From sequence record PQ871103.1: a stretch of 64,000 nucleotides of DNA; one strand, written 5' to 3'. The DNA is from Escherichia phage vB_Eco_ZCEC15. The notes under the pieces were generated by a model, which had not been told where the DNA came from, searched no databases, and saw only the letters and a list, made by a program, of their open reading frames with translations. Both the position numbers and the translations under genes were made by a program. Of this stretch, positions 3,337 to 55,833 are shown piece after piece. Every line of letters begins with the position of its first letter. Position 1 is the first letter of the stretch.

Positions 3337-3372
3337 TTTATTCTCCAATTTCACATTTGTTTTGATAGGGTA

Positions 3373-3402
3373 ATAGTATCACACTACTACCCTACTGTAA
3401 AC
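3373..3402 (-). promoter_or_regulatory. early promoter within stem-loop (PeSL-like)
   Basis: GTTTAC-N18-TACTAT; -10 sits inside inverted repeat TAGGGTA...TACCCTA; upstream of AAA+ gene. Confidence 0.6.
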
Positions 3403-3405
3403 AAT

Positions 3406-3669
3406 TTATTTTAGTGTTTGCCAAATTTTTACTGCTTCGCGACGAGATACTTCTACAGCTCCAAGTTCTACGGCTTTTTGACGTCGGCGAGCATGTAAGT
3501 CATAATGTTTAATGCGTTTATCTTGAAACCAAGAACGTTTCATTCCTATTGCTTCTGCCATTTCATGGAGCTCTTCAATATCTCCATCAGTGAACATATG
3601 ACAATTTTTAGTTAGATGACCGCGAAGTTTCCATCCATGATTCATTAAAACATCTACGTAAACTGTCAT
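3406..3669 (-). CDS. small DUF4031-like protein (87 aa)
   Basis: ORF MTVYVD...HYDL...GAVEV resembling DUF4031 family as recalled; ATGA start/stop overlap with upstream gene. Confidence 0.5.
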   Translation of the reverse strand: MTVYVDVLMNHGWKLRGHLTKNCHMFTDGDIEELHEMAEAIGMKRSWFQDKRIKHYDLHARRRQKAVELGAVEVSRREAVKIWQTLK

Positions 3670-4859
3670 TGATTCTGCTCCAAATATGTTTCTATAATTT
3701 TCTGAGCGAGATAAACTGCGTTATCTTCAGTTGCATCTTCTAAGAAATTTTCAAAATAAGCTGAAATTTCTTCTGTGTCAATCAACTTTTTTACTTCAAT
3801 TAACGTAGTTTTCATTTTATTCCCCAAATCCGTATCAGTTGATAGTTGTATAGTACCATATCGGTGGTTTTCAAGATAAACCCTCTCAAGGAAGTCATCC
3901 CAGAACCCCATGTCTACTTTTTGCTGCATACCGTTCTTAGAAGCTTCAATGGATGCTGCTTCTACTTGATCGACCACATCTTCCAAAAACTCTTGAACCG
4001 TTTTAAATGGATGTTTACCCAGCTTCACGTCGAGAATAAATGAAGCATCTTGAAGTGGATAGACCAAGTCACCAGTTTTGTAAATTTCCAATAGTTGGAG
4101 TCCACCACGACAAGCATGACTCAGGGCTTTCCAGTCAATGCCCTCATTCGCCTCAGCCTTACGAGCACGTTCGCCGTATTCAGCATCTAATTTGTTCAGT
4201 GACTGCTTAAGCTCAATAAGAGAAAGCGTTGTCTGATATTTACGACCCAACACCGTATAGAATGTTTGTGGGCCTGTTTTCTCATGATTATGGAATACCC
4301 ATTCACAGAATTCGTTTTCTGGAAGACGATGCTTAATATCTTCTACCTTAGTCCGACGTAAACGATCTGGAATGCCTTCTTGATAATCAACCCATTGTTC
4401 AGGAATCTGGTTAACAATTTCCAATACACCACGCAGTGCAGCCAATCGAGAACCCTTAACGCCGTATTTAGAAGCTTGCTTGCGAACATATCCTAAATAG
4501 GATTTCATGTTAGTCGTATAAAAACGAGAACGATTGTCTTGAACAAATTTCCATACATCAGGCAAATCAGATTTAACTACCAGTTCAGGTGGAGTGTGGA
4601 GCATATCCAATGCTACAGTTTCACCATCTGCTGCTAATTTAAAGAAATACTTAAGACTGTATAGTTCATGGTCAATATCATCTTTAGTGTTTTTAGATGA
4701 TGTGCTGTTAGTGTTTTTACTCATATGCTCTTTAACATTTCCGATAAGAATATCACGAGCAGGAGGAACAAAGATTTCTTTAAAATCTACATCAGATTCT
4801 GGAGTAGAAGTTCCATAAAGATGACTACCAAAATAGCTTTTCATTACTGTTTTCATCAT
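3666..4859 (-). CDS. Pol-beta-superfamily nucleotidyltransferase-fold protein (397 aa)
   Basis: N-terminal motif FGSHLYGTSTPESDVD (GS...DxD) plus downstream acidic cluster DDIDHE; ATGA overlaps at both ends. Confidence 0.6.
   Translation of the reverse strand: MMKTVMKSYFGSHLYGTSTPESDVDFKEIFVPPARDILIGNVKEHMSKNTNSTSSKNTKDDIDHELYSLKYFFKLAADGETVALDMLHTPPELVVKSDLPDVWKFVQDNRSRFYTTNMKSYLGYVRKQASKYGVKGSRLAALRGVLEIVNQIPEQWVDYQEGIPDRLRRTKVEDIKHRLPENEFCEWVFHNHEKTGPQTFYTVLGRKYQTTLSLIELKQSLNKLDAEYGERARKAEANEGIDWKALSHACRGGLQLLEIYKTGDLVYPLQDASFILDVKLGKHPFKTVQEFLEDVVDQVEAASIEASKNGMQQKVDMGFWDDFLERVYLENHRYGTIQLSTDTDLGNKMKTTLIEVKKLIDTEEISAYFENFLEDATEDNAVYLAQKIIETYLEQNQ
3850..3881 (-). promoter_or_regulatory. 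early-promoter-like repeat copy inside the nucleotidyltransferase ORF
   Basis: Third exact copy of TGGTACTATACAACTATCAACT; -35 spacing atypical (GTTTAT-N20), so function uncertain. Confidence 0.35.
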
Positions 4860-5341
4860 TCAGCCTTATATTCAATAACAGGACATACTTTAGCTTTATG
4901 CGCTTTTAAAAATTCGACGATAATAGATTTCTTGGGTTGAATAGGCTCAAGTCCATTTTTGATTCGTTCTTCGTTTTGTACAATGAGCTCAATTTCTTTA
5001 TTGAGCTTTCGGTCGTTATATTTGTCTAACAACCAGGAAGGACCAATTACCGCCCCGACAGCAATAAGAACCATGACCGATAATGCTAAAATGCCTATAC
5101 CAATTGAAGCTGGAATTAATGTCCATAGACTACTAAAGACAAAGAATTTAATTAAAATTTCTTGGCCAATTATTGCAGCACCTGTTAAAGTTGCAAATCC
5201 AACAATTGAAACCGCTAATACCGGGAGAAACGTTTTCCAAAAATAAGCACATAACGTTTTTGGACGATTCCATGTGCTGTTAAATGCCGAGTAAATTTTA
5301 AAGTGCCAAGAGTTTTCATTAATAATCATAATTATAATCAT
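4856..5341 (-). CDS. multi-pass membrane protein (161 aa)
   Basis: ORF with 3-4 hydrophobic helices (LPVLAVSIVGFATLTGAAIIG, IGIGILALSVMVLIAVGAVIG); ATGA overlap with flanking genes. Confidence 0.55.
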   Translation of the reverse strand: MIIIMIINENSWHFKIYSAFNSTWNRPKTLCAYFWKTFLPVLAVSIVGFATLTGAAIIGQEILIKFFVFSSLWTLIPASIGIGILALSVMVLIAVGAVIGPSWLLDKYNDRKLNKEIELIVQNEERIKNGLEPIQPKKSIIVEFLKAHKAKVCPVIEYKAE

Positions 5342-5859
5342 CCTTTCATTGAAGGTGTAACAGTTGTTAAATACTTAATCATAGCTTCAGCTTCTGATTT
5401 TGATAATGAAATTTCTCCATTGTTTTGACGAATAGAAATAAAATCCGGATGACGGTCACCACCAGCTTTTAAAACACACATATAAGTATCAGTTTCATCT
5501 TCAATATCTGAAATGATTGAAGCAGTTCCACATGAATGTGGTTTTTGATAAATCAATACAGCTTTTCTTCCACCGTTTGACTGTTCATAAACTTTTAACA
5601 CATCAAACAAATCGCTTCTTTTATCAATAGCTAAGATGTTGTTTTCATCTTCAATATTAAATCCTTCGGATACTTCATAAAGTGTCACCCATAAATCACC
5701 AATATCAATAACAGCGTTCACTTTTCCATGACTTTCAAGAGCATTACAAATTTTCTTAATTTCATCATAACTCATTTTAATAATATCATCTCCTTGAATA
5801 AGGAAGATGTCATTTTTAAATTCAACACGAATTAAACCACTTCCACTTGAAATAAACAT
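5338..5859 (-). CDS. hypothetical protein (173 aa), paralog of next gene
   Basis: GAGGAAAT RBS before ATG; C-terminal region alignable with adjacent 180-aa ORF (shared ...A..KYL..V.P.M). Confidence 0.6.
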   Translation of the reverse strand: MFISSGSGLIRVEFKNDIFLIQGDDIIKMSYDEIKKICNALESHGKVNAVIDIGDLWVTLYEVSEGFNIEDENNILAIDKRSDLFDVLKVYEQSNGGRKAVLIYQKPHSCGTASIISDIEDETDTYMCVLKAGGDRHPDFISIRQNNGEISLSKSEAEAMIKYLTTVTPSMKG

Positions 5860-5865
5860 ATTTCC

Positions 5866-6408
5866 TCACTTTGAAATCATAGTTGGAATGACAGAATCAA
5901 GATAAGTCTTTAGCGCAATAGCTTCGTCTTTGGTAAATGTGACAATATGTGCTCGAGAATCATCAATTTGGCGAACAAGTACGACATCACCATCTTCATA
6001 AGAAGTTTTGACATCCAAAGTCGTAGTATAGTTTGCAGCTACTGGATTAATAATGCTAGCACTGCGATCTTTAGCCCATTGAAGTTTAGCCTTTTCGGAT
6101 GTTTCGGCTGATTCAGATTCCAAGAATTCTTTCACCTTAACAACGAATGTTGCCCAATTATCGATAGAAAGACACGCAAGTTCAGTTTCAATATTACCAC
6201 CGTGAGTGCCACGATAAAAACGAACTTGGAGGTCGCCTGTGATATTAGTTACACTGGTAACTCCTGAGGGAGTATAAGATAAAATCGCAGCTAGTTCCAT
6301 AGGAAGAATAGTAATACTATCGTCTTCCTGTGTCAGAACGTATGCATTACCACGTTTTTCGATAACTAGATCACCGAACAAATCAGTTGTTTCAATTACA
6401 GCTTTCAT
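5866..6408 (-). CDS. hypothetical protein (~180 aa), paralog of previous gene
   Basis: ORF; start adjusted to ATG 6406-6408 (track start is TTG); paralogous to 5338-5859. Confidence 0.6.
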   Translation of the reverse strand: MKAVIETTDLFGDLVIEKRGNAYVLTQEDDSITILPMELAAILSYTPSGVTSVTNITGDLQVRFYRGTHGGNIETELACLSIDNWATFVVKVKEFLESESAETSEKAKLQWAKDRSASIINPVAANYTTTLDVKTSYEDGDVVLVRQIDDSRAHIVTFTKDEAIALKTYLDSVIPTMISK

Positions 6409-6409
6409 A

Positions 6410-6604
6410 TTATTTACCAATTAAAGTTTCAATATAAGAATCAAGATGTACTTTAGCTTCTTCCATAAGAGTTTTGTATTTAATCTTAATCTTATTAGCA
6501 TGTCTGGAGAAAGCTGATTCTTCATCAATAACTGTTGATGCATGAACAGCTTTACTATAAATCTCAATTAATTCTCTTAACTCAAAAGCTTGTTCATTTG
6601 TCAT
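6410..6604 (-). CDS. hypothetical small protein (64 aa)
   Basis: ORF with AAAGGAG RBS upstream of ATG. Confidence 0.45.
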   Translation of the reverse strand: MTNEQAFELRELIEIYSKAVHASTVIDEESAFSRHANKIKIKYKTLMEEAKVHLDSYIETLIGK

Positions 6605-9141: not shown

Positions 9142-9150
9142 ATCACCTTC

Positions 9151-9336
9151 TTAAAGCGTATTCACATAAGCTATTAATTCATTTTCTTTCTTATCAAACC
9201 GATCAGCAAATTCTTCCTGCTGTTCGGGAGATAGCGGGCCATATTCATCATAAAAGGTGTTTGCTTCTGTATGCTCATCTAGAAGTTCATGGATAAGCTC
9301 AAACAATTTATCTTTTTGTTCTTTACTCAGACTCAT
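9151..9336 (-). CDS. hypothetical acidic small protein (61 aa)
   Basis: ORF downstream-adjacent to tk on the map (tk.1 position). Confidence 0.5.
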   Translation of the reverse strand: MSLSKEQKDKLFELIHELLDEHTEANTFYDEYGPLSPEQQEEFADRFDKKENELIAYVNTL

Positions 9337-9506
9337 ATATTAATTTCCAGGAGTTTTAAAATAATTCGCTTTTGCTTAAATATTTCCATAGTTAAATGAC
9401 CAGTATCTTTTTGACCGATTCCAATGGCAAAACCTTTATTGACAGCGAGTTCAATTAAATTATCAAGCTCACATAACACTTCATATTGTAACTCAAAACT
9501 ATTCAT
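9333..9506 (-). CDS. possible small protein (57 aa)
   Basis: Unlisted ORF; ATGA overlaps with both neighbours suggest translational coupling. Confidence 0.4.
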   Translation of the reverse strand: MNSFELQYEVLCELDNLIELAVNKGFAIGIGQKDTGHLTMEIFKQKRIILKLLEINI

Positions 9507-9730
9507 TTTGGTTTACCTTCTTTAACGAAATCGGGATAAGGATAAAATCCTGAATAAAATCCTTCACCTTTATGATTGATGCATCCTTTATTAGAACAAT
9601 AGCACCAATAATCGAAATCACAAGCCATTTCATCATTACATAAAGCAAAAACAACTGGCCATTCACACTTTTCGCAGTGGGCATTTTTAAGAATACTTGT
9701 TTGGCTCATAACCATGTAACCTTTAAACAA
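9503..9730 (-). CDS. Cys-rich small protein (75 aa)
   Basis: ORF with multiple Cys/His (CEKCEW...CDFDYWCYCSNKGCINH), possible zinc-binding. Confidence 0.45.
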   Translation of the reverse strand: MFKGYMVMSQTSILKNAHCEKCEWPVVFALCNDEMACDFDYWCYCSNKGCINHKGEGFYSGFYPYPDFVKEGKPK

Positions 9731-14337: not shown

Positions 14338-14362
14338 TTTATCCCTCCAAGCAATTGTGAAT

Positions 14363-18763: not shown

Positions 18764-18770
18764 AAGAATG

Positions 18771-19232
18771 TTATTTGATTTGTTTAGCAGACCAAATGCG
18801 GTCTTTGATGATTTTTTGGAGGTCTTCAACATACTCTAGGTCATGAGCATGTGGATTATCTTTGAAACTATGAGCTCGCGCAAGTTTCTGGCCTTCGGTC
18901 TTAATTATCAAAAGTTCTTTAAGAATTGCTTCATACCTAGAGATAATTCCTTTAGCAATATTTTTTTCTTGTGCTGCTTTAGGGTCAGCCTTAGGAGCAG
19001 GTTTACCAGAAGGTTTTTCGAAAGCCGCGCCAGTAGCAACCAGGCTTTTCCAGGCGGTGGTAACATAGTTACCCACAAAGCCTTCAGCTCTCATATCGTC
19101 GTAGAACTTGTACCGAGATTCGTCAGAAGCATCTTTATAAGAATATTTACCAGCTTTAATAGCAGCAGTTGCTACAGCGCGAACATCTGAAGCGGATGCT
19201 TCGGTCATTAAAAATTGAGCATAAGTTTTCAT
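18771..19232 (-). CDS. internal-protein-like capsid-targeted protein (153 aa)
   Basis: N-terminus MKTYAQFLMTE resembles the T4 capsid targeting sequence MKTYQEFIAE; late promoter TATAAATA and AGGAAA RBS upstream; own terminator. Confidence 0.65.
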   Translation of the reverse strand: MKTYAQFLMTEASASDVRAVATAAIKAGKYSYKDASDESRYKFYDDMRAEGFVGNYVTTAWKSLVATGAAFEKPSGKPAPKADPKAAQEKNIAKGIISRYEAILKELLIIKTEGQKLARAHSFKDNPHAHDLEYVEDLQKIIKDRIWSAKQIK

Positions 19233-19260
19233 TGTTATTTCCTGTGTTAATTAACTCATC

Positions 19261-19268
19261 TATTTATA
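19261..19268 (-). promoter_or_regulatory. late promoter (TATAAATA)
   Basis: Exact TATAAATA on minus strand 30 nt upstream of internal-protein-like gene. Confidence 0.55.
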
Positions 19269-19692: not shown

Positions 19693-20358
19693 TTAAAATT
19701 TCATTTTTCTACCTTTAAACCATCCTTCTGGAATTGGGTCAGTTTTCTTAATACGTTTAGAAACTTTTTCATCTAATGAATGAATCCACATCATACCAAA
19801 TTGGGAATTCTTTTCACCTTGTTGGTGTTTATTTTTGGCGTGAGATTCTTTCATTTTATTAATAGTTTCAGGAGTATGATGCTTATTTAAAAATCTGCTA
19901 TTATTTAAAAATTTTTCCCTGTATTCAGGAGTTGACCACAAACGTTTAAATACATTTGAACCATGTTTACGATATTTTTCTTGAAGTAAAATATCATTTT
20001 TAAAACGTGACTTAAACGATTTAGCTCCTTTTAAACTAGCGTCTTTCTTCTGATTTAGCATCTCAGGAATATTTATATGGTCCCATCCACCTTCACCACC
20101 AAGTTTTAAATTATACACATCTGGTCTATTTAAAAACTCTTCTGTGACAATATTTTTCTCGGCTTCAAGCATAGATTCTTTATCATCAAAATACTCTAAT
20201 ATTTCTTTAGAGAAATTTTCTATACCATACTTGTCTTGGGCTCTTTTTAATAATTTACCAGAACCCATATATCCATCATCTAAATTTTCGGTAGAATGCA
20301 CACCAATATAAATTTTATTATTAATTTTATTTGTTATTTTATAAGTGTAATGGAACAT
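19693..20358 (-). CDS. segB: GIY-YIG homing endonuclease
   Basis: 221 aa; N-terminal YTYKITNKINNKIYIGVHS...GYMGSG GIY-YIG motif; located inside the tRNA cluster as T4 segB. Confidence 0.85.
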   Translation of the reverse strand: MFHYTYKITNKINNKIYIGVHSTENLDDGYMGSGKLLKRAQDKYGIENFSKEILEYFDDKESMLEAEKNIVTEEFLNRPDVYNLKLGGEGGWDHINIPEMLNQKKDASLKGAKSFKSRFKNDILLQEKYRKHGSNVFKRLWSTPEYREKFLNNSRFLNKHHTPETINKMKESHAKNKHQQGEKNSQFGMMWIHSLDEKVSKRIKKTDPIPEGWFKGRKMKF

Positions 20359-21054: not shown

Positions 21055-21579
21055 TTAAAGCAAATTAAACATTTTAACGGTCGGCAAAACAATTTCTTCT
21101 TCTATATAAGAGTATTTAACACTCTCAACTACACGCAAAAAATCATAATCATAATACTCAGAAGCATTACCTAAAATATTAATAAGTCCTTCAAGCACCT
21201 TATTACTATTCACAAAGAATAAGTCAAATACACGTTCTTCATCTTCTTCAGATTTATTACCAAGATCAACTTCTATGCGAAAGACCTTTTTAATGAATTC
21301 TGGATAAAGCTGATCTGAGAACAGTCCTTCAACCAAGTATTCATAAATAAAAAGAGATTGCTCGCTGAACAAACCATTACCACAATAGCGCTCAATTTTA
21401 GTACTAGAATATCTGCTTTTAAACTTCTTTAAAAGATACTGAAATTGTAAGATTTCATGCTCTTCTACGCCAAACAGTGTTTTGGTTTTATAGTTGTCAC
21501 CATCATTTTCCCAGGTAGTGACATCAATTACGTAACCCTGCGGAATTGTAGTACCCAAACAAATATTCATTTTCACCAC
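21055..21579 (-). CDS. hypothetical protein (174 aa)
   Basis: ORF in operon between internal-protein genes and tRNA cluster. Confidence 0.5.
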   Translation of the reverse strand: MVKMNICLGTTIPQGYVIDVTTWENDGDNYKTKTLFGVEEHEILQFQYLLKKFKSRYSSTKIERYCGNGLFSEQSLFIYEYLVEGLFSDQLYPEFIKKVFRIEVDLGNKSEEDEERVFDLFFVNSNKVLEGLINILGNASEYYDYDFLRVVESVKYSYIEEEIVLPTVKMFNLL

Positions 21580-21863
21580 GCTGCATTAATGTAAGTATAT
21601 TTAATACATTCAAGACCCAAAGGATTCTTGAAAATATCATATTCAAGAGGACCTTTTTCTGTTTCGATAAAGAAATCAAAATTTACTGTATTAAATTTAC
21701 GGTCTTCCTTCACTAATTTAACTTGTGAAGATGAACGGTCAATGTAAACCTTTTCAACTTCAAAATATGTTAAAATGCCATAATCATCAATCAAAGCTTT
21801 AGCCGCGTCTTGATCATATTTATATCCATTTTCAATGGATGATACTTTCGCATAAAGAATCAT
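21573..21863 (-). CDS. hypothetical protein (96 aa)
   Basis: ORF, overlapping neighbours by a few nt. Confidence 0.5.
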   Translation of the reverse strand: MILYAKVSSIENGYKYDQDAAKALIDDYGILTYFEVEKVYIDRSSSQVKLVKEDRKFNTVNFDFFIETEKGPLEYDIFKNPLGLECIKYTYINAAW

Positions 21864-43961: not shown

Positions 43962-47102
<3,141 letters not shown>

Positions 47103-47130: not shown

Positions 47131-49110
47131 ATGACTTTATTATCTCCGGGCATTGAGCTCAAAGAAACTACGGTTCAAAGCACCGTGGTTAATAACTCTA
47201 CTGGTACAGCAGCTTTGGCCGGTAAATTCCAGTGGGGTCCTGCTTTTCAGATTAAACAGGTTACAAACGAAGTAGATTTAGTTAATACTTTTGGTCAACC
47301 TACAGCTGAAACTGCTGACTATTTTATGTCTGCAATGAATTTCTTACAATATGGAAATGATTTGCGAGTTGTGCGCGCTGTCGATAGAGATACCGCTAAA
47401 AACTCATCTCCGATTGCTGGTAATATTGAATACACAATTTCTACCCCAGGTAGTAACTACGCGGTTGGAGATAAAATCACGGTCAAATATGTTTCAGAAG
47501 ATGTTGAAACAGAAGGTAAAATTACCGAAGTAGATGCTGATGGAAAAATTAAGAAAATTAATATTCCTACTGCAAAAATTATTGCTAAAGCTAAAGAAGT
47601 TGGCGAATACCCAACATTAGGTTCTAACTGGACTGCAGAAATTTCTTCGTCTTCCTCTGGTTTAGCTGCAGTAATAACTCTTGGAAAAATTATTACTGAT
47701 TCTGGTATTTTATTAGCTGAAATTGAAAATGCTGAAGCTGCTATGACAGCTGTTGACTTTCAAGCAAGTCTCGAAAAATATGGAATTCCAGGAGTAGTAG
47801 CTCTTTATCCAGGTGAGTTGGGCGATAAAATTGAAATTGAAATCGTATCTAAAGCTGACTACGCAAAAGGGGCTTCTGCATTACTCCCAATTTATCCAGG
47901 TGGCGGAACACGCGCATCTACTGCCAAAGCAGTGTTTGGATATGGACCACAAACTGACTCGCAATACGCTATTATAGTTCGTCGCAATGATGCTATTGTT
48001 CAAAGCGTTGTTCTTTCAACGAAGCGTGGTGAAAAAGATATTTACGATAGTAACATCTATATTGATGACTTTTTCGCAAAAGGCGGTTCAGAATATATTT
48101 TTGCAACTGCACAAAACTGGCCAGAAGGCTTCTCTGGAATTTTAACTCTGTCTGGTGGATTATCATCAAATGCTGAAGTAACAGCAGGAGATTTGATGGA
48201 AGCTTGGGACTTCTTTGCTGACCGCGAATCTGTTGACGTTCAGTTGTTTATTGCGGGTTCTTGTGCCGGTGAATCTTTAGAAACAGCATCTACTGTCCAA
48301 AAACACGTCGTTTCAATTGGAGATGCTCGCCAAGATTGCTTAGTATTGTGCTCACCACCGCGTGAAACTGTTGTTGGAATTCCTGTAACTCGTGCTGTTG
48401 ATAACTTAGTCAATTGGAGAACCGCATCAGGTTCATACACTGATAATAACTTTAATATCAGTTCAACCTACGCAGCAATTGATGGTAACTACAAGTATCA
48501 GTATGACAAATATAATGATGTAAATCGTTGGGTTCCATTAGCAGCTGACATTGCTGGTTTATGCGCGAGAACTGATAACGTTTCTCAGACTTGGATGTCT
48601 CCAGCTGGTTATAATCGTGGCCAGATTCTTAACGTTATTAAACTTGCTATTGAAACTCGCCAAGCTCAGCGCGACCGTTTATATCAAGAAGCTATCAACC
48701 CAGTAACTGGTACAGGTGGTGATGGTTACGTATTATATGGTGATAAAACAGCTACTTCTGTTCCTTCTCCATTTGATCGTATTAACGTTCGTCGTCTGTT
48801 TAATATGTTGAAAACGAATATCGGACGTAGTTCAAAATATCGTTTGTTCGAATTAAACAACGCGTTTACTCGTTCATCATTCCGCACAGAAACTGCCCAG
48901 TACTTACAGGGAATTAAAGCTCTCGGTGGAATTTATGAATATCGTGTAGTTTGCGATACAACAAATAATACTCCGTCAGTAATTGATAGAAATGAGTTTG
49001 TTGCAACATTCTACATCCAACCGGCGCGCAGTATAAATTATATTACTTTGAATTTCGTCGCAACTGCTACTGGTGCAGACTTCGATGAGTTAACTGGTCT
49101 TGCAGGTTAA
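47131..49110 (+). CDS. 18: tail sheath protein gp18
   Basis: 659 aa; late promoter upstream. Confidence 0.97.
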   Translation: MTLLSPGIELKETTVQSTVVNNSTGTAALAGKFQWGPAFQIKQVTNEVDLVNTFGQPTAETADYFMSAMNFLQYGNDLRVVRAVDRDTAKNSSPIAGNIEYTISTPGSNYAVGDKITVKYVSEDVETEGKITEVDADGKIKKINIPTAKIIAKAKEVGEYPTLGSNWTAEISSSSSGLAAVITLGKIITDSGILLAEIENAEAAMTAVDFQASLEKYGIPGVVALYPGELGDKIEIEIVSKADYAKGASALLPIYPGGGTRASTAKAVFGYGPQTDSQYAIIVRRNDAIVQSVVLSTKRGEKDIYDSNIYIDDFFAKGGSEYIFATAQNWPEGFSGILTLSGGLSSNAEVTAGDLMEAWDFFADRESVDVQLFIAGSCAGESLETASTVQKHVVSIGDARQDCLVLCSPPRETVVGIPVTRAVDNLVNWRTASGSYTDNNFNISSTYAAIDGNYKYQYDKYNDVNRWVPLAADIAGLCARTDNVSQTWMSPAGYNRGQILNVIKLAIETRQAQRDRLYQEAINPVTGTGGDGYVLYGDKTATSVPSPFDRINVRRLFNMLKTNIGRSSKYRLFELNNAFTRSSFRTETAQYLQGIKALGGIYEYRVVCDTTNNTPSVIDRNEFVATFYIQPARSINYITLNFVATATGADFDELTGLAG

Positions 49111-49116
49111 TTGATT

Positions 49117-49139
49117 ATGGGGCTTCGGCCCCTATTCTC
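49117..49139 (+). terminator. hairpin after gene 18
   Basis: GGGGC-TTCG-GCCCC hairpin directly after gene 18 stop. Confidence 0.5.
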
Positions 49140-49149
49140 GAGGAAACAA

Positions 49150-49767
49150 GTGATTATTTCTAAGTTTGTTAAAGTGAAAATTGTACCATCAAATTTTAAA
49201 CATTATCAATCAAAGGGTTATAAATTAACACCTCTTGGAGCGGTTAAACATGGATTTAGGTATTATGAAATTGATGTTAAAGTTGAAGACATTAAAGGTA
49301 GTACCGCGTATGTAAAATGCCGTTGCGATAAATGTGGAATTGAATATAACCAACGCATTGGAAGAAACACTGATATTTGTCGTGATTGCCGTCATAAAGA
49401 TAAAATGCGCAATAATTCATATGGTTCCGCGAATAAAGGAAAAACAGTAGAATGTATGCATGGCGTAAATCATCCAAGATGGAACCCAAATAAATCTGAA
49501 ATGCGTGAATATATTTCATTGGTATATAAAGAAACTCGTAAGCATAAGAAAATTTGGTCAAAATGGCCAAATGCTGATAAAATAGGAGTGTGCGGTACAA
49601 AAGGTGCTTACCAACTTGATCATAAGGTATCTATCAAATACGGTTTTGATAATTTAATTCCTGCTGAAATAATTGGCGGTATTAATAATTTAGAAATAAT
49701 CACTTGGGAATCTAACCGAGAAAAATCAAAAAGAAATAGTGTAGATCTTTGGGATTTACTAGAATGA
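49150..49767 (+). CDS. HNH-family homing endonuclease (free-standing)
   Basis: Zinc-finger-like CRCDKCG...CRDCRH plus C-terminal HNH-like YQLDHKVSIKYGFDNLIPAEIIGGINNLEIITWESN; start adjusted to GTG 49150 after GAGGAAA; lies between genes 18 and 19. Confidence 0.7.
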   Translation: MIISKFVKVKIVPSNFKHYQSKGYKLTPLGAVKHGFRYYEIDVKVEDIKGSTAYVKCRCDKCGIEYNQRIGRNTDICRDCRHKDKMRNNSYGSANKGKTVECMHGVNHPRWNPNKSEMREYISLVYKETRKHKKIWSKWPNADKIGVCGTKGAYQLDHKVSIKYGFDNLIPAEIIGGINNLEIITWESNREKSKRNSVDLWDLLE

Positions 49768-49793
49768 TTCTAAAGGCCTGTTTCGGCAGGCCA

Positions 49794-49801
49794 TATAAAT
49801 A
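49794..49801 (+). promoter_or_regulatory. late promoter (gene 19, distal)
   Basis: TATAAATA. Confidence 0.55.
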
Positions 49802-49852
49802 CACTATATCCTTAATTCTTTAATTCTATATGCCCTAGGTTAAACATAGGGA

Positions 49853-49860
49853 TATAAATA
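49853..49860 (+). promoter_or_regulatory. late promoter (gene 19, proximal)
   Basis: TATAAATA 15 nt upstream of gene 19 ATG. Confidence 0.65.
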
Positions 49861-49874
49861 CTACAGAGGCTAAT

Positions 49875-50366
49875 ATGTTTGTAGATGATGTAACACGCGC
49901 GTTTGAATCGGGTGATTTTGCGCGACCTAACTTATTCCAAGTAGAAATTTCTTATCTTGGACAAAATTTTACGTTTCAATGTAAAGCCACTGCTTTACCA
50001 GCTGGTATTGTAGAAAAAATCCCAGTCGGATTTATGAACCGTAAAATTAACGTAGCAGGCGATCGTACATTCGATGACTGGACTGTTACAGTAATGAACG
50101 ATGAAGCTCATGATGCTCGCCAGAAGTTCGTTGATTGGCAAAGCATTGCTGCGGGGCAAGGAAACGAAATTACTGGTGGAAAACCTGCAGAGTATAAAAA
50201 GAGCGCTATCGTTCGTCAATATGCTCGTGATGCTAAAACAGTAACAAAAGAAATTGAAATTAAAGGTCTGTGGCCTACTAACGTGGGTGAACTTCAATTA
50301 GATTGGGATTCAAACAATGAAATCCAAACATTTGAAGTAACTCTCGCTCTCGATTATTGGGAATAA
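49875..50366 (+). CDS. 19: tail tube protein gp19
   Basis: 163 aa; two late promoters upstream. Confidence 0.97.
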   Translation: MFVDDVTRAFESGDFARPNLFQVEISYLGQNFTFQCKATALPAGIVEKIPVGFMNRKINVAGDRTFDDWTVTVMNDEAHDARQKFVDWQSIAAGQGNEITGGKPAEYKKSAIVRQYARDAKTVTKEIEIKGLWPTNVGELQLDWDSNNEIQTFEVTLALDYWE

Positions 50367-55750: not shown

Positions 55751-55763
55751 TCTTTGACGATTT

Positions 55764-55795
55764 AAGGGACCTTCGGGTCCCTTTAGTTGTTTTTA
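55764..55795 (+). terminator. rho-independent terminator after gene 23
   Basis: AGGGACC-TTCG-GGTCCCT followed by T-rich tract. Confidence 0.75.
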
Positions 55796-55798
55796 TGG

Positions 55799-55806
55799 TA
55801 TAAATA
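55799..55806 (+). promoter_or_regulatory. late promoter (gene 24)
   Basis: TATAAATA ~28 nt upstream of gene 24, just after a terminator hairpin. Confidence 0.7.
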
Positions 55807-55833
55807 AATCATATAAACCAAAAGGAAAGCGCA

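What the first reader, a model, noticed from the sequence alone, without database searches (positions are those of the whole stretch)
49111..49874. HNH homing endonuclease inserted between tail sheath (18) and tail tube (19) genes
A ~205-aa ORF with a Cys-rich zinc finger (CRCDKCG...CRDCRH) and a C-terminal HNH-like motif (LDHKVSIKYGFDNLIPAEIIGGINNLEIITWESN) sits in a ~760-bp spacer between two structural genes that I recall as adjacent in T4. The 5' edge coincides with the gene 18 terminator hairpin and the 3' edge with two late promoters. This is typical of a free-standing homing endonuclease.
Basis: partly seen in the sequence, partly recalled or inferred. Interest (0 to 1): 0.5.

Follow-up and report, generated by a model that had tools for sequence, protein, structure and literature searches.

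The report
Optional HNH homing endonuclease after sheath gene
A 656-bp optional insert between the tail sheath and tail tube genes of this T4-like phage encodes an uncharacterised zinc-ribbon plus HNH-type nuclease that looks like a selfish free-standing homing endonuclease, an ordinary kind of element in T-even phages, although this family always sits behind the sheath gene.

Summary
A 205-aa ORF (GTG 49150 to TGA 49767) lies between gene 18 (47131-49110) and gene 19 (49875-50366). It has a CxxC...CxxC zinc ribbon and a C-terminal D-H...N...N motif.

Against T4 and T2, it lies on a precise 656-bp insert (49111-49766) that replaces 8 bp (TACGGTGC). About 502 close relatives (Tequatrovirus records) show three junction states:
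- about 385 are empty, including T4 and T2;
- 47 carry this allele (A), including RB3 and HY03;
- 70 carry a second allele (B), including T6 and PST.

The best reading is a free-standing HNH homing endonuclease gene. Nuclease activity and mobility are inferred, not shown.

In all 19 other loci examined, relatives with this N-terminal domain lie directly behind the tail sheath gene, even where gp18 is only 35% identical. In three lineages, two unrelated N-terminal cassettes sit on nearly identical C-terminal halves and flanks.

Verdict: a new, uncharacterised member of a known kind.

The parts
49111..49766 (+). Optional 656-bp insert relative to T4 and T2. It replaces the 8 bp TACGGTGC that lie between the gene 18 stop codon and ATTCTAAAGGCC.
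   Evidence: Alignment with T4, T2 and PST. blastn of the window against T4 shows a gap of 655 nt in the window against 7 nt in T4. Empty-site records span 1153 bp against 1801 bp here. There are no flanking direct or inverted repeats.
49119..49132 (+). Insert-borne GC hairpin with a UUCG tetraloop (GGGGCUUCGGCCCC), directly after the gene 18 stop codon. It probably attenuates read-through into the ORF.
   Evidence: Sequence and RNA fold. It is identical in allele B, and the same 14-mer precedes the homologue in Shewanella phage Thanatos-2. The attenuating role is inferred.
49140..49143 (+). Shine-Dalgarno GAGG, six bases upstream of the GTG start.
   Evidence: Sequence.
49150..49767 (+). ORF of 205 aa from a GTG start. 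It encodes an N-terminal beta/zinc-ribbon domain, a flexible linker and a C-terminal HNH-like nuclease. The final A of the TGA stop codon belongs to the conserved flank.
   Evidence: PHROG 5104, unknown function, E 3.5e-92. AlphaFold pLDDT 85. dN/dS 0.03-0.25 among four allele-A copies.
49318..49395 (+). Coding region for the CxxC...CxxC zinc ribbon (residues 57-82). This is the putative DNA-binding, specificity-giving part.
   Evidence: C59, C62 and C77 are invariant. Eight of 32 family members hit Pfam DUF4379 (treble-clef zinc finger), best E 8e-4. A profile hit to the zinc-ribbon protein mS66 has E 5e-3.
49173..49535 (+). Central cassette (most of the N-terminal domain) that distinguishes allele A from allele B. 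It is 45% nt identical to PST, whereas the flanks are 86-100% identical.
   Evidence: Segment identities. The same pattern occurs in two other lineages and in four protein pairs.
49609..49725 (+). HNH (beta-beta-alpha-metal) core, residues 154-192. D157-H158 lie at the end of strand 1, N180-L181 at the start of strand 2, and N189 and K192 on the helix.
49775..49792 (+). Ancestral hairpin that directly follows gene 18 in T4 and T2. In this window the insert has displaced it to the 3' side of the ORF.
   Evidence: 100% shared with T4 and T2. RNA fold -13.9 kcal/mol, z -3.1.
49794..49801 (+). First late-promoter octamer TATAAATA upstream of gene 19. It is ancestral and not part of the insert.
   Evidence: identical in T4.
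49853..49860 (+). Second late-promoter octamer TATAAATA upstream of gene 19. It is ancestral and not part of the insert.
   Evidence: identical in T4.
47131..49110 (+). Gene 18 (tail sheath), the upstream flank. Its 3' end is the constant neighbour of this ORF family, and its late promoter (TATAAATA at 47095) is the nearest promoter upstream of the ORF.
49875..50366 (+). Gene 19 (tail tube), the downstream flank.

Best explanation
This is a free-standing homing endonuclease gene of a divergent, uncharacterised HNH family. It sits as a 656-bp optional cassette exactly between the stop codon of tail sheath gene 18 and the ancestral hairpin and late promoters of tail tube gene 19.

Shown here:
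- the precise insert;
- the three junction states among near-identical phages;
- the two-domain protein with an invariant zinc ribbon and an invariant D-H...N...N motif on an HNH-like fold;
- purifying selection on the gene;
- a history for the ORF that does not match that of its flanks.

Inferred:
- The ORF has no promoter of its own in this lineage. It would be transcribed late by read-through from the gene 18 late promoter, damped by the insert's own UUCG hairpin and by a GTG start.
- The N-terminal zinc-ribbon domain would bind DNA at or near the empty 18/19 junction of a co-infecting phage that lacks the element (TAA-TACGGTGC-ATTCTAAAGGCC, or the conserved 3' end of gene 18).
- The C-terminal HNH domain would nick or cut there, with H158 as general base and D157 and N189 holding the metal.
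- T4-type recombination-dependent repair would then copy the cassette, and some flanking DNA, from the donor genome.
- The carrier would be immune because the insert itself disrupts the site.
For: Precise insert with identical boundaries and no repeats.

Presence/absence polymorphism. Of about 502 Tequatrovirus-type records, 47 carry allele A, 70 carry allele B and about 385 are empty. T2 and T4 are empty and T6 carries allele B. Some empty phages (T2, 98.9%) have flanks closer to the window than some carriers (96.8-98%). Only 236 of 2014 phages with a T4-type gp19 carry a homologue.

Modular design typical of homing endonucleases. The same C-terminal domain is joined to other N-terminal modules (DUF7487 repeats, an A2L-type zinc ribbon, a helix-turn-helix-like N-terminus) at other loci.

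Incongruent history. For PST, gp18 is 99% identical but the ORF 54%. For Thanatos-2, gp18 is 64% and the ORF 63%.

Functional gene. dN/dS is about 0.1. Truncated remnants of 59, 104 and 137 aa elsewhere fit the gain-decay-loss cycle of such elements.

Late expression signals. Relatives carry TATAAATA directly upstream of their copies.

The window also differs from T4 at other known homing-endonuclease loci: segC, segD and mobD are absent.
Against: No nuclease activity, cleavage site or biased inheritance has been shown here or in any paper found.

Synonymous divergence of the ORF is similar to that of its flanks in four carriers. These copies have therefore mostly travelled with their flanks and were not recently invaded.

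No fixed sequence differences between carriers and non-carriers were found in the last 110 nt of gene 18 or in the gene 19 leader. The target and the immunity mechanism are therefore guesses.

Constant position behind the sheath gene across very distant phages is also what an old, vertically inherited accessory gene would show.
Confidence: 0.72

Rival explanations
1. It is an old, vertically inherited accessory nuclease that belongs with the sheath gene and has been lost repeatedly, for example in T4 and T2. It would serve the phage, for instance by attacking competing phage or host DNA late in infection, rather than copying itself by homing.
For: All 19 other loci examined whose ORF has this N-terminal domain lie directly behind a tail sheath gene. 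This holds down to Sinorhizobium phage phiM7, where gp18 is 35% identical, and in metagenomic contigs where the next gene is not a tail tube. There is purifying selection. Synonymous divergence is similar to that of the flanks.
Against: All empty sites in about 385 records have one identical junction rather than varied deletion scars. The ORF's history is incongruent with gp18 and gp19. Cassette exchange occurs inside the gene. Distribution is patchy in every genus. The two readings also overlap: homing endonucleases can both home and exclude competitors (PMC2993671).
Confidence: 0.15
2. It is a packaging helper of the kind found in HK97- and GVE2-type phages, where a small HNH protein encoded near the terminase and portal genes stimulates terminase cutting.
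For: One of the two best structural matches, GVE2 HNH (5h0o), is a small phage-encoded HNH endonuclease. I recall it as terminase-associated, but this was not checked here. The gene lies inside the 17-18-19-20 block, between terminase and portal.
Against: T4, T2 and about 77% of close relatives package DNA without it. T4 gp17 carries its own nuclease (annotation). In contig L011 the sheath gene and this ORF are not next to a terminase gene. The extra N-terminal zinc-ribbon domain and its cassette dimorphism are not features of those helpers.
Confidence: 0.04
3. It is an inactive relic of a former homing endonuclease gene, carried along passively.
For: Truncated copies exist in other phages. 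This copy has a weak GTG start and no promoter of its own.
Against: The ORF is intact, all invariant family residues are present, and dN/dS is 0.03-0.25 among allele-A copies.
Confidence: 0.07

Closest known systems
T4 MobE and the other free-standing mob genes (mobA-E), HNH-family homing endonucleases of T-even phages
   Same: A free-standing ORF inserted in an intergenic spacer between two conserved genes. It is optional among close relatives, has an HNH-type catalytic motif, and is expected to spread by intronless homing in mixed infection (PMC2988022, PMC2790892).
   Different: There is no detectable sequence similarity. tblastn finds 237 places in 236 records, and the ~385 empty-junction records (the class that holds T4, with its five mob genes) are not among them. 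The nuclease domain is C-terminal here, behind a zinc-ribbon domain. No activity is known.
SegH and Hef, which replace mobC and mobE at the same loci in some T4 relatives (from my own knowledge of Sandegren, Nord and Sjoberg 2005; not read here)
   Same: Alternative endonuclease genes occupy one and the same intergenic site in different close relatives, as alleles A and B do here.
   Different: Here the two alleles share the catalytic half and the flanks and differ only in the N-terminal domain cassette. SegH/Hef and MobC/MobE are unrelated proteins.
Gme HNH (PDB 4h9d), phage GVE2 HNH (5h0o) and T5 SciA (9qgx), small HNH nicking endonucleases
   Different: Similarity is at fold level only. Those proteins are single-domain, and the canonical zinc-binding CxxC pairs flanking the HNH motif are not seen here, where only one Cys (C148) lies near it.
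I-HmuI and I-TevIII, intron-encoded HNH homing endonucleases of phages
   Same: HNH catalytic motif combined with separate DNA-binding modules. I-TevIII also uses zinc fingers (PMC2988022).
   Different: Those are intron-encoded and this one is free-standing. No Rfam intron is present. From my recollection their catalytic domain is N-terminal, the opposite order to this protein.
Pfam DUF4379 (probable treble-clef zinc finger) and PHROG 5104
   Same: The N-terminal zinc ribbon of 8 of 32 members matches DUF4379 weakly. The whole protein matches PHROG 5104 at E 3.5e-92.
   Different: Both are families without assigned function, so membership adds no mechanism. The window protein itself does not reach any Pfam threshold.

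Membership tests
HNH (beta-beta-alpha-metal) nuclease superfamily | Beta-hairpin plus helix fold of the catalytic core | tested here: met
HNH (beta-beta-alpha-metal) nuclease superfamily | Conserved His at the end of strand 1, Asn at strand 2 and Asn/His on the helix | tested here: met
   D157-H158, N180-L181 and N189 are invariant in 32 sequences. D, H and N180 remain invariant and N189 is at least 90% conserved in 90 sequences.
HNH (beta-beta-alpha-metal) nuclease superfamily | Significant match to a curated HNH sequence profile | tested here: not met
   Pfam gives no HNH hit for the window protein. Among 32 members, one hits HNH_4 at E 0.078 and one hits HNH_5 at E 0.22. NCBIfam gives none. 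PDB profile searches find no HNH.
HNH (beta-beta-alpha-metal) nuclease superfamily | Metal-dependent DNA cleavage | not testable with these tools
   This needs purified protein.
Free-standing homing endonuclease genes of T4-type phages | Presence/absence polymorphism at one locus among close relatives, with precise boundaries | tested here: met
   47 allele A, 70 allele B and about 385 empty records among about 502. Boundaries are at 49111 and 49766.
Free-standing homing endonuclease genes of T4-type phages | Not a transposon or an intron: no target duplication, no terminal repeats, no ribozyme | tested here: met
   No flanking repeats. No Rfam match.
Free-standing homing endonuclease genes of T4-type phages | Gene history differs from that of the flanking genes | tested here: met
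   For PST, gp18 is 99% identical but the ORF 54%. For Thanatos-2, gp18 is 64% and the ORF 63%. Cassette mosaics are seen.
Free-standing homing endonuclease genes of T4-type phages | Site-specific cleavage of the allele that lacks the gene | not testable with these tools
   The target is only inferred: the empty junction or the gene 18 3' end. No fixed carrier/non-carrier differences occur in the flanks.
Free-standing homing endonuclease genes of T4-type phages | Biased inheritance in mixed infection | not testable with these tools
   This needs phage crosses, for example T6 or RB3 with T2 or T4.
T4 Mob (mobA-E) family | Sequence homology to Mob proteins | tested here: not met
   tblastn at E 1e-5 finds 237 places in 236 records. 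The records at 95% identity or more are the 47 allele-A carriers, so the empty-junction class that holds T4 and its five mob genes gives no hit.
Terminase-associated HNH (HK97 gp74 / GVE2 type) | Needed for packaging and conserved next to terminase in all relatives | tested here: not met
   The gene is absent from about 77% of close relatives, including T4 and T2. It is not next to a terminase gene in L011.

The most novel reading that the evidence does not exclude
The ORF may belong to a very large family of homing endonucleases (6211 cluster representatives at E<=0.001) in which one sub-family has stayed faithful to a single site, the 3' end of the tail sheath gene, across the whole T4 superfamily. 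That sub-family exists as two ancient, unrelated N-terminal 'specificity' cassettes (long and short type) that are repeatedly swapped onto lineage-specific catalytic halves. The dimorphism would then reflect competition between two endonuclease types for one site, for example each type cutting genomes that carry the other type or no element. That would be element-against-element homing, not just invasion of empty sites.
Probability: 0.3. Interest if true: 0.6.

Novelty: new member of a known kind. Interest (0 to 1): 0.4.

Why it matters
Free-standing homing endonucleases shape which markers win in phage crosses and where T-even genomes recombine. This one lies in the middle of the most conserved structural gene block (17-18-19-20). 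It belongs to a very large family with no curated annotation: PHROG gives 'unknown function' and Pfam gives nothing for the nuclease domain.

If it is active, it adds a new HNH lineage with the nuclease at the C-terminus. It would also offer a natural three-state system (empty in T2 and T4, allele B in T6, allele A in RB3 and this phage) that can be tested with classical laboratory phages.

The constant position behind the sheath gene and the swappable N-terminal cassette could show how such enzymes keep or change target specificity. Practically, the ORF should be annotated as a putative HNH homing endonuclease. In public records it is currently labelled hypothetical protein, holin, head morphogenesis protein or restriction enzyme.

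Tried and rejected
Sequence-level searches did not recognise the nuclease domain:
- Pfam, NCBIfam and PADLOC scans of the protein gave no nuclease family.
- phmmer and two profile searches against PDB sequences found only zinc-ribbon proteins, no HNH.
- Foldseek against the PDB was not significant; the top hit was a Cas9 HNH domain at E 1.8.
- hhalign against the Bp7 gene annotated 'HNH endonuclease' was useless, because that gene is really a GIY-YIG/NUMOD3 protein.

Other kinds of element were ruled out:
- Transposon or intron readings were rejected: there are no terminal or direct repeats and no Rfam match.
- The generic sigma-70 promoter and terminator scan gave nothing above background. 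T4 late promoters were searched separately.
- The minus-strand ORFs inside the region (49292-49600 and 49225-49395) were treated as chance ORFs, because all conservation follows the plus-strand frame.

I looked for protective substitutions that distinguish carriers from non-carriers in the last 110 nt of gene 18 and in the gene 19 leader. None were found, in only four sequences.

Literature searches for this ORF ('gp19.1', genes 18 and 19, tail sheath plus homing endonuclease, DUF7487, DUF4379) found no study of it. One search failed on a term that was too short.

Full report
**What is in the sequence**

The window is a T4-like coliphage genome segment. It is 99.1% identical to phage HY03 and 98.7% to RB3 over the region. 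It is colinear with T4 from about 52.0 kb to 115.5 kb.

Gene 18 (tail sheath) occupies 47131-49110 and gene 19 (tail tube) 49875-50366. Between them lies a plus-strand ORF that the ORF listing reports as 49111-49767. Homologues start at a conserved M/V-I-I-S-K. The matching start here is GTG at 49150, preceded by GAGG at 49140-49143.

The zinc-ribbon motif (CRCDKCG...CRDCRH) and the HNH-like stretch (LDHKVSIKYGFDNLIPAEIIGGINNLEIITWESN) are both present. The two late-promoter octamers TATAAATA lie at 49794 and 49853.

**The insert and its boundaries**

Alignment with T4, T2 and PST and blastn against T4 show that positions 49111-49766 (656 bp) replace 8 bp (TACGGTGC). In T4 and T2 these 8 bp lie between the gene 18 stop codon and ATTCTAAAGGCC. 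The last A of the ORF's TGA stop already belongs to the shared flank.

The insert brings its own GC hairpin with a UUCG loop (49119-49132). The hairpin that follows gene 18 in T4 (49775-49792) and both late promoters lie downstream of the ORF and are 100% identical to T4.

There are no direct or inverted terminal repeats and no Rfam match. The insert is therefore neither a transposon nor an intron.

**Distribution among relatives**

Among about 502 Tequatrovirus-type records the junction has three states:
- 47 records carry this allele (A) at 95-99% identity, including RB3, RB5-10, HY03, HP3 and pSs-1.
- 70 carry a second allele (B), including PST, PP01 and ECML-134.
- About 385 are empty with one identical junction, including T4, T2, RB32 and RB33.

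T6 carries allele B, annotated only as 'T6ORF160, hypothetical protein'. Some empty phages have flanks closer to the window (T2, 98.9%) than some carriers do (96.8-98%). In the whole phage collection, 2014 records have a T4-type gp19 but only 236 have a homologue of the ORF. The gene is optional and patchy in every genus.

**What the protein is**

No curated library recognises the protein, apart from PHROG 5104 (unknown function, E 3.5e-92).

An alignment of 32 homologues shows these invariant residues: C59, C62 and C77 in the zinc ribbon, and D157, H158, N180, L181, W186, N189 and K192 in the C-terminal part. D, H and N180 remain invariant in a set of 90 sequences.

AlphaFold gives a confident model (pLDDT 85; 91 for the C-terminal domain alone). 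It has an N-terminal beta/zinc-ribbon domain, a low-confidence linker (residues about 87-110) and a C-terminal domain. In that domain D157-H158 end a strand, N180-L181 begin the next strand, and N189 lies on the following helix.

Against this, Foldseek is not significant. Profile searches of PDB sequences find no HNH. Pfam HNH models appear only at E 0.08-0.2 in single family members. JGI's pipeline named three relatives 'McrA'.

I conclude that the HNH fold is supported at moderate strength, and that this is a divergent HNH lineage not covered by Pfam. The N-terminal zinc ribbon matches DUF4379 (treble-clef zinc finger) in 8 of 32 members, and the zinc-ribbon protein mS66 in the PDB.

**Evidence on function and mobility**

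Among four allele-A copies dN/dS is 0.03-0.25. The gene is therefore under purifying selection, although less strongly than gp18 and gp19.

The ORF's history does not follow that of its flanks. PST has 99% identical gp18 and gp19 but a 54% identical ORF. Shewanella phage Thanatos-2 has 64% identical gp18 and a 63% identical ORF.

The family is very large: 6211 cluster representatives at E<=0.001. The same C-terminal domain is joined to other N-terminal modules (DUF7487 'YGV' repeats, an A2L-type zinc ribbon, a helix-turn-helix-like N-terminus), and the two of those variants whose neighbours could be read lie at other genomic positions. This beads-on-a-string modularity is what the review of T4 mobile elements describes for phage homing endonucleases (PMC2988022).

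Truncated copies of 59, 104 and 137 aa occur in other phages. This fits the gain-decay-loss cycle expected of such elements.

The window also differs from T4 at other known endonuclease loci: segC, segD and mobD are absent and segB is present. This is the usual mosaic among T-even phages (PMC2993671).

First, every family member examined that has this N-terminal domain lies directly behind a tail sheath gene. That is 19 of 19 other loci:
- Tequatrovirus (PST, T6);
- Gaprivervirus VR7, where it is called gp19.1;
- Acinetobacter phage Melin;
- Serratia phage CHI14;
- Dhakavirus Bp7;
- Shewanella phage Thanatos-2;
- Sinorhizobium phage phiM7, whose gp18 is only 35% identical;
- eleven metagenomic or genomic contigs, including two loci (phiM7 and contig L011) where the next gene is not a tail tube.

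Many of these copies have TATAAATA or a hairpin immediately upstream, which suggests late expression.

Second, alleles A and B are mosaics of each other. Compared with PST:

| Window segment | Nucleotide identity |
|---|---|
| 49111-49172 | 98% |
| 49173-49535 | 45% |
| 49536-49767 | 86%, rising to 97-100% at the 3' end |
| spacer before gene 19 | 100% |

The same pattern recurs in a VR7-type pair and in a third lineage. There the flanks are 87-98% identical, the N-domain cassette 42-44% and the C-terminal part 88-89%. Four protein pairs have 85-92% identical C-terminal parts (residues 129-205) with only 21-30% identical N-terminal parts. Two ancient N-terminal cassette types ('long' and 'short') are therefore exchanged within an otherwise lineage-specific gene.

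**Most likely mechanism**

The most likely reading is a free-standing HNH homing endonuclease gene.

The following are shown: the insert, the polymorphism, the domain anatomy, the conserved catalytic-type residues, purifying selection and the incongruent history.

The following are inferred:
- The gene is transcribed late by read-through from the gene 18 late promoter at 47095. No TATAAATA lies between that promoter and the ORF. Expression would be damped by the insert's hairpin and the GTG start.
- The zinc-ribbon domain binds DNA at the empty junction or at the conserved 3' end of gene 18.
- The HNH domain nicks or cuts there.
- The donor genome is copied by recombination-dependent repair.
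- The carrier is immune because the insert splits the site. No fixed protective substitutions were seen in the flanks.

Confidence is about 0.7.

**Rival explanations**

- An old accessory nuclease inherited with the sheath gene and often lost (0.15). The constant position and the flank-like synonymous divergence favour it. The single empty junction, the incongruent history and the cassette exchange count against it.
- A packaging-helper HNH (0.04). T4 and T2 lack the gene.
- An inactive relic (0.07). The ORF is intact and dN/dS is low.

**Comparison with known systems and novelty**

The closest known systems by mode of action are the T4 mob genes and MobE in particular. The SegH/Hef replacements of mobC/mobE are a precedent for alternative endonuclease genes at one site. 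There is no sequence homology to Mob proteins, and the domain order appears reversed relative to I-HmuI-type enzymes (from my own recollection). The closest structures are small HNH nicking enzymes.

I found no paper that studies this ORF. The 2010 inventory of homing endonuclease genes in T4 relatives lists none of the 'other HNH' class for RB3, which carries this allele (PMC2993671). Public records label the ORF mostly 'hypothetical protein', and occasionally 'homing endonuclease', 'HNH endonuclease', 'type II restriction endonuclease', 'holin' or 'head morphogenesis protein'.

Verdict: the finding is correct and is a new, uncharacterised member of a known kind. The sheath-gene fidelity and the N-terminal cassette dimorphism raise its interest somewhat, and both can be tested with the classical phages T2, T4, T6 and RB3.

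Noticed in passing
window 49173-49535; L001 (PST), L002 (VR7) vs L023, L024 vs L025: The N-terminal domain of the ORF occurs in two unrelated cassette types ('long' and 'short'). They are swapped within otherwise near-identical genes and flanks in at least three phage lineages: the cassette is 42-45% nt identical while the flanks are 87-100% identical.
   Followed up: partly
window 29397 (T4 80217-80775), window 55762-55821 (T4 106521-107311), window 4861-5840 (T4 mobD region): Relative to T4, the window lacks the homing endonuclease genes segC (with most of 5.3) and segD. It also has other ORFs, including a predicted membrane protein, where T4 has mobD. segB is present at 19693-20358.
   Followed up: partly
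window 14341-14348 (T4 65359-66454): The T4 internal head protein genes ipII and ipIII (about 1.1 kb) are absent at this point.
   Followed up: no
window 3349-3860, 6001-6600, 9142-9704, 18766-19265, 21075-21597: These segments have no T4 counterpart. Examples are an 87-aa ORF at 3406-3669, a 153-aa ORF at 18771-19232 and a 174-aa ORF at 21055-21579. Their functions were not examined.
   Followed up: no
L007 (phage Bp7) 4269-6481: The gene annotated 'HNH endonuclease' between gp19 and gp20 is really a GIY-YIG/NUMOD3 (Seg-like) protein by Pfam. The portal gene next to it is annotated as two ORFs (4908-5231 and 5237-6481).
   Followed up: partly
L015 vs L016 (metagenome contigs), about 5116-5682 of L016: These two otherwise identical contigs differ by a 188-aa ORF with a NUMOD3 motif inserted between the tail tube and portal genes. 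This is another presence/absence endonuclease-like insert in the same gene block.
   Followed up: no
L018 5093-7390: The portal gene of this metagenomic T4-like phage contains an intein: an Intein_splicing domain lies inside Portal_T4.
   Followed up: no
L006 (Shewanella phage Thanatos-2) 1-1444 and 3465-3500: The large terminase gene is annotated as two overlapping CDS. The hairpin GGGGCTTCGGCCCC upstream of the ORF homologue is the same 14-mer as in the window, although gp18 is only 64% identical.
   Followed up: no
GenBank MG010123.1 and NC_041919.1 (hits H34/H41, H12/H49): The record named 'Staphylococcus phage SAJK-IND' (32 kb) is 98-99.5% identical to this T4-like coliphage region, so it is probably mislabelled or contaminated. 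Phage HP3, a T4-like phage, carries the taxonomy line 'Rosemountvirus'.
   Followed up: no
L002 (VR7) and L003 (Melin), just upstream of the ORF homologue: In VR7 and Melin the late-promoter octamer TATAAATA lies inside a hairpin directly upstream of the ORF. This recalls the hairpin and late-promoter control known for I-TevI and mobE.
   Followed up: no
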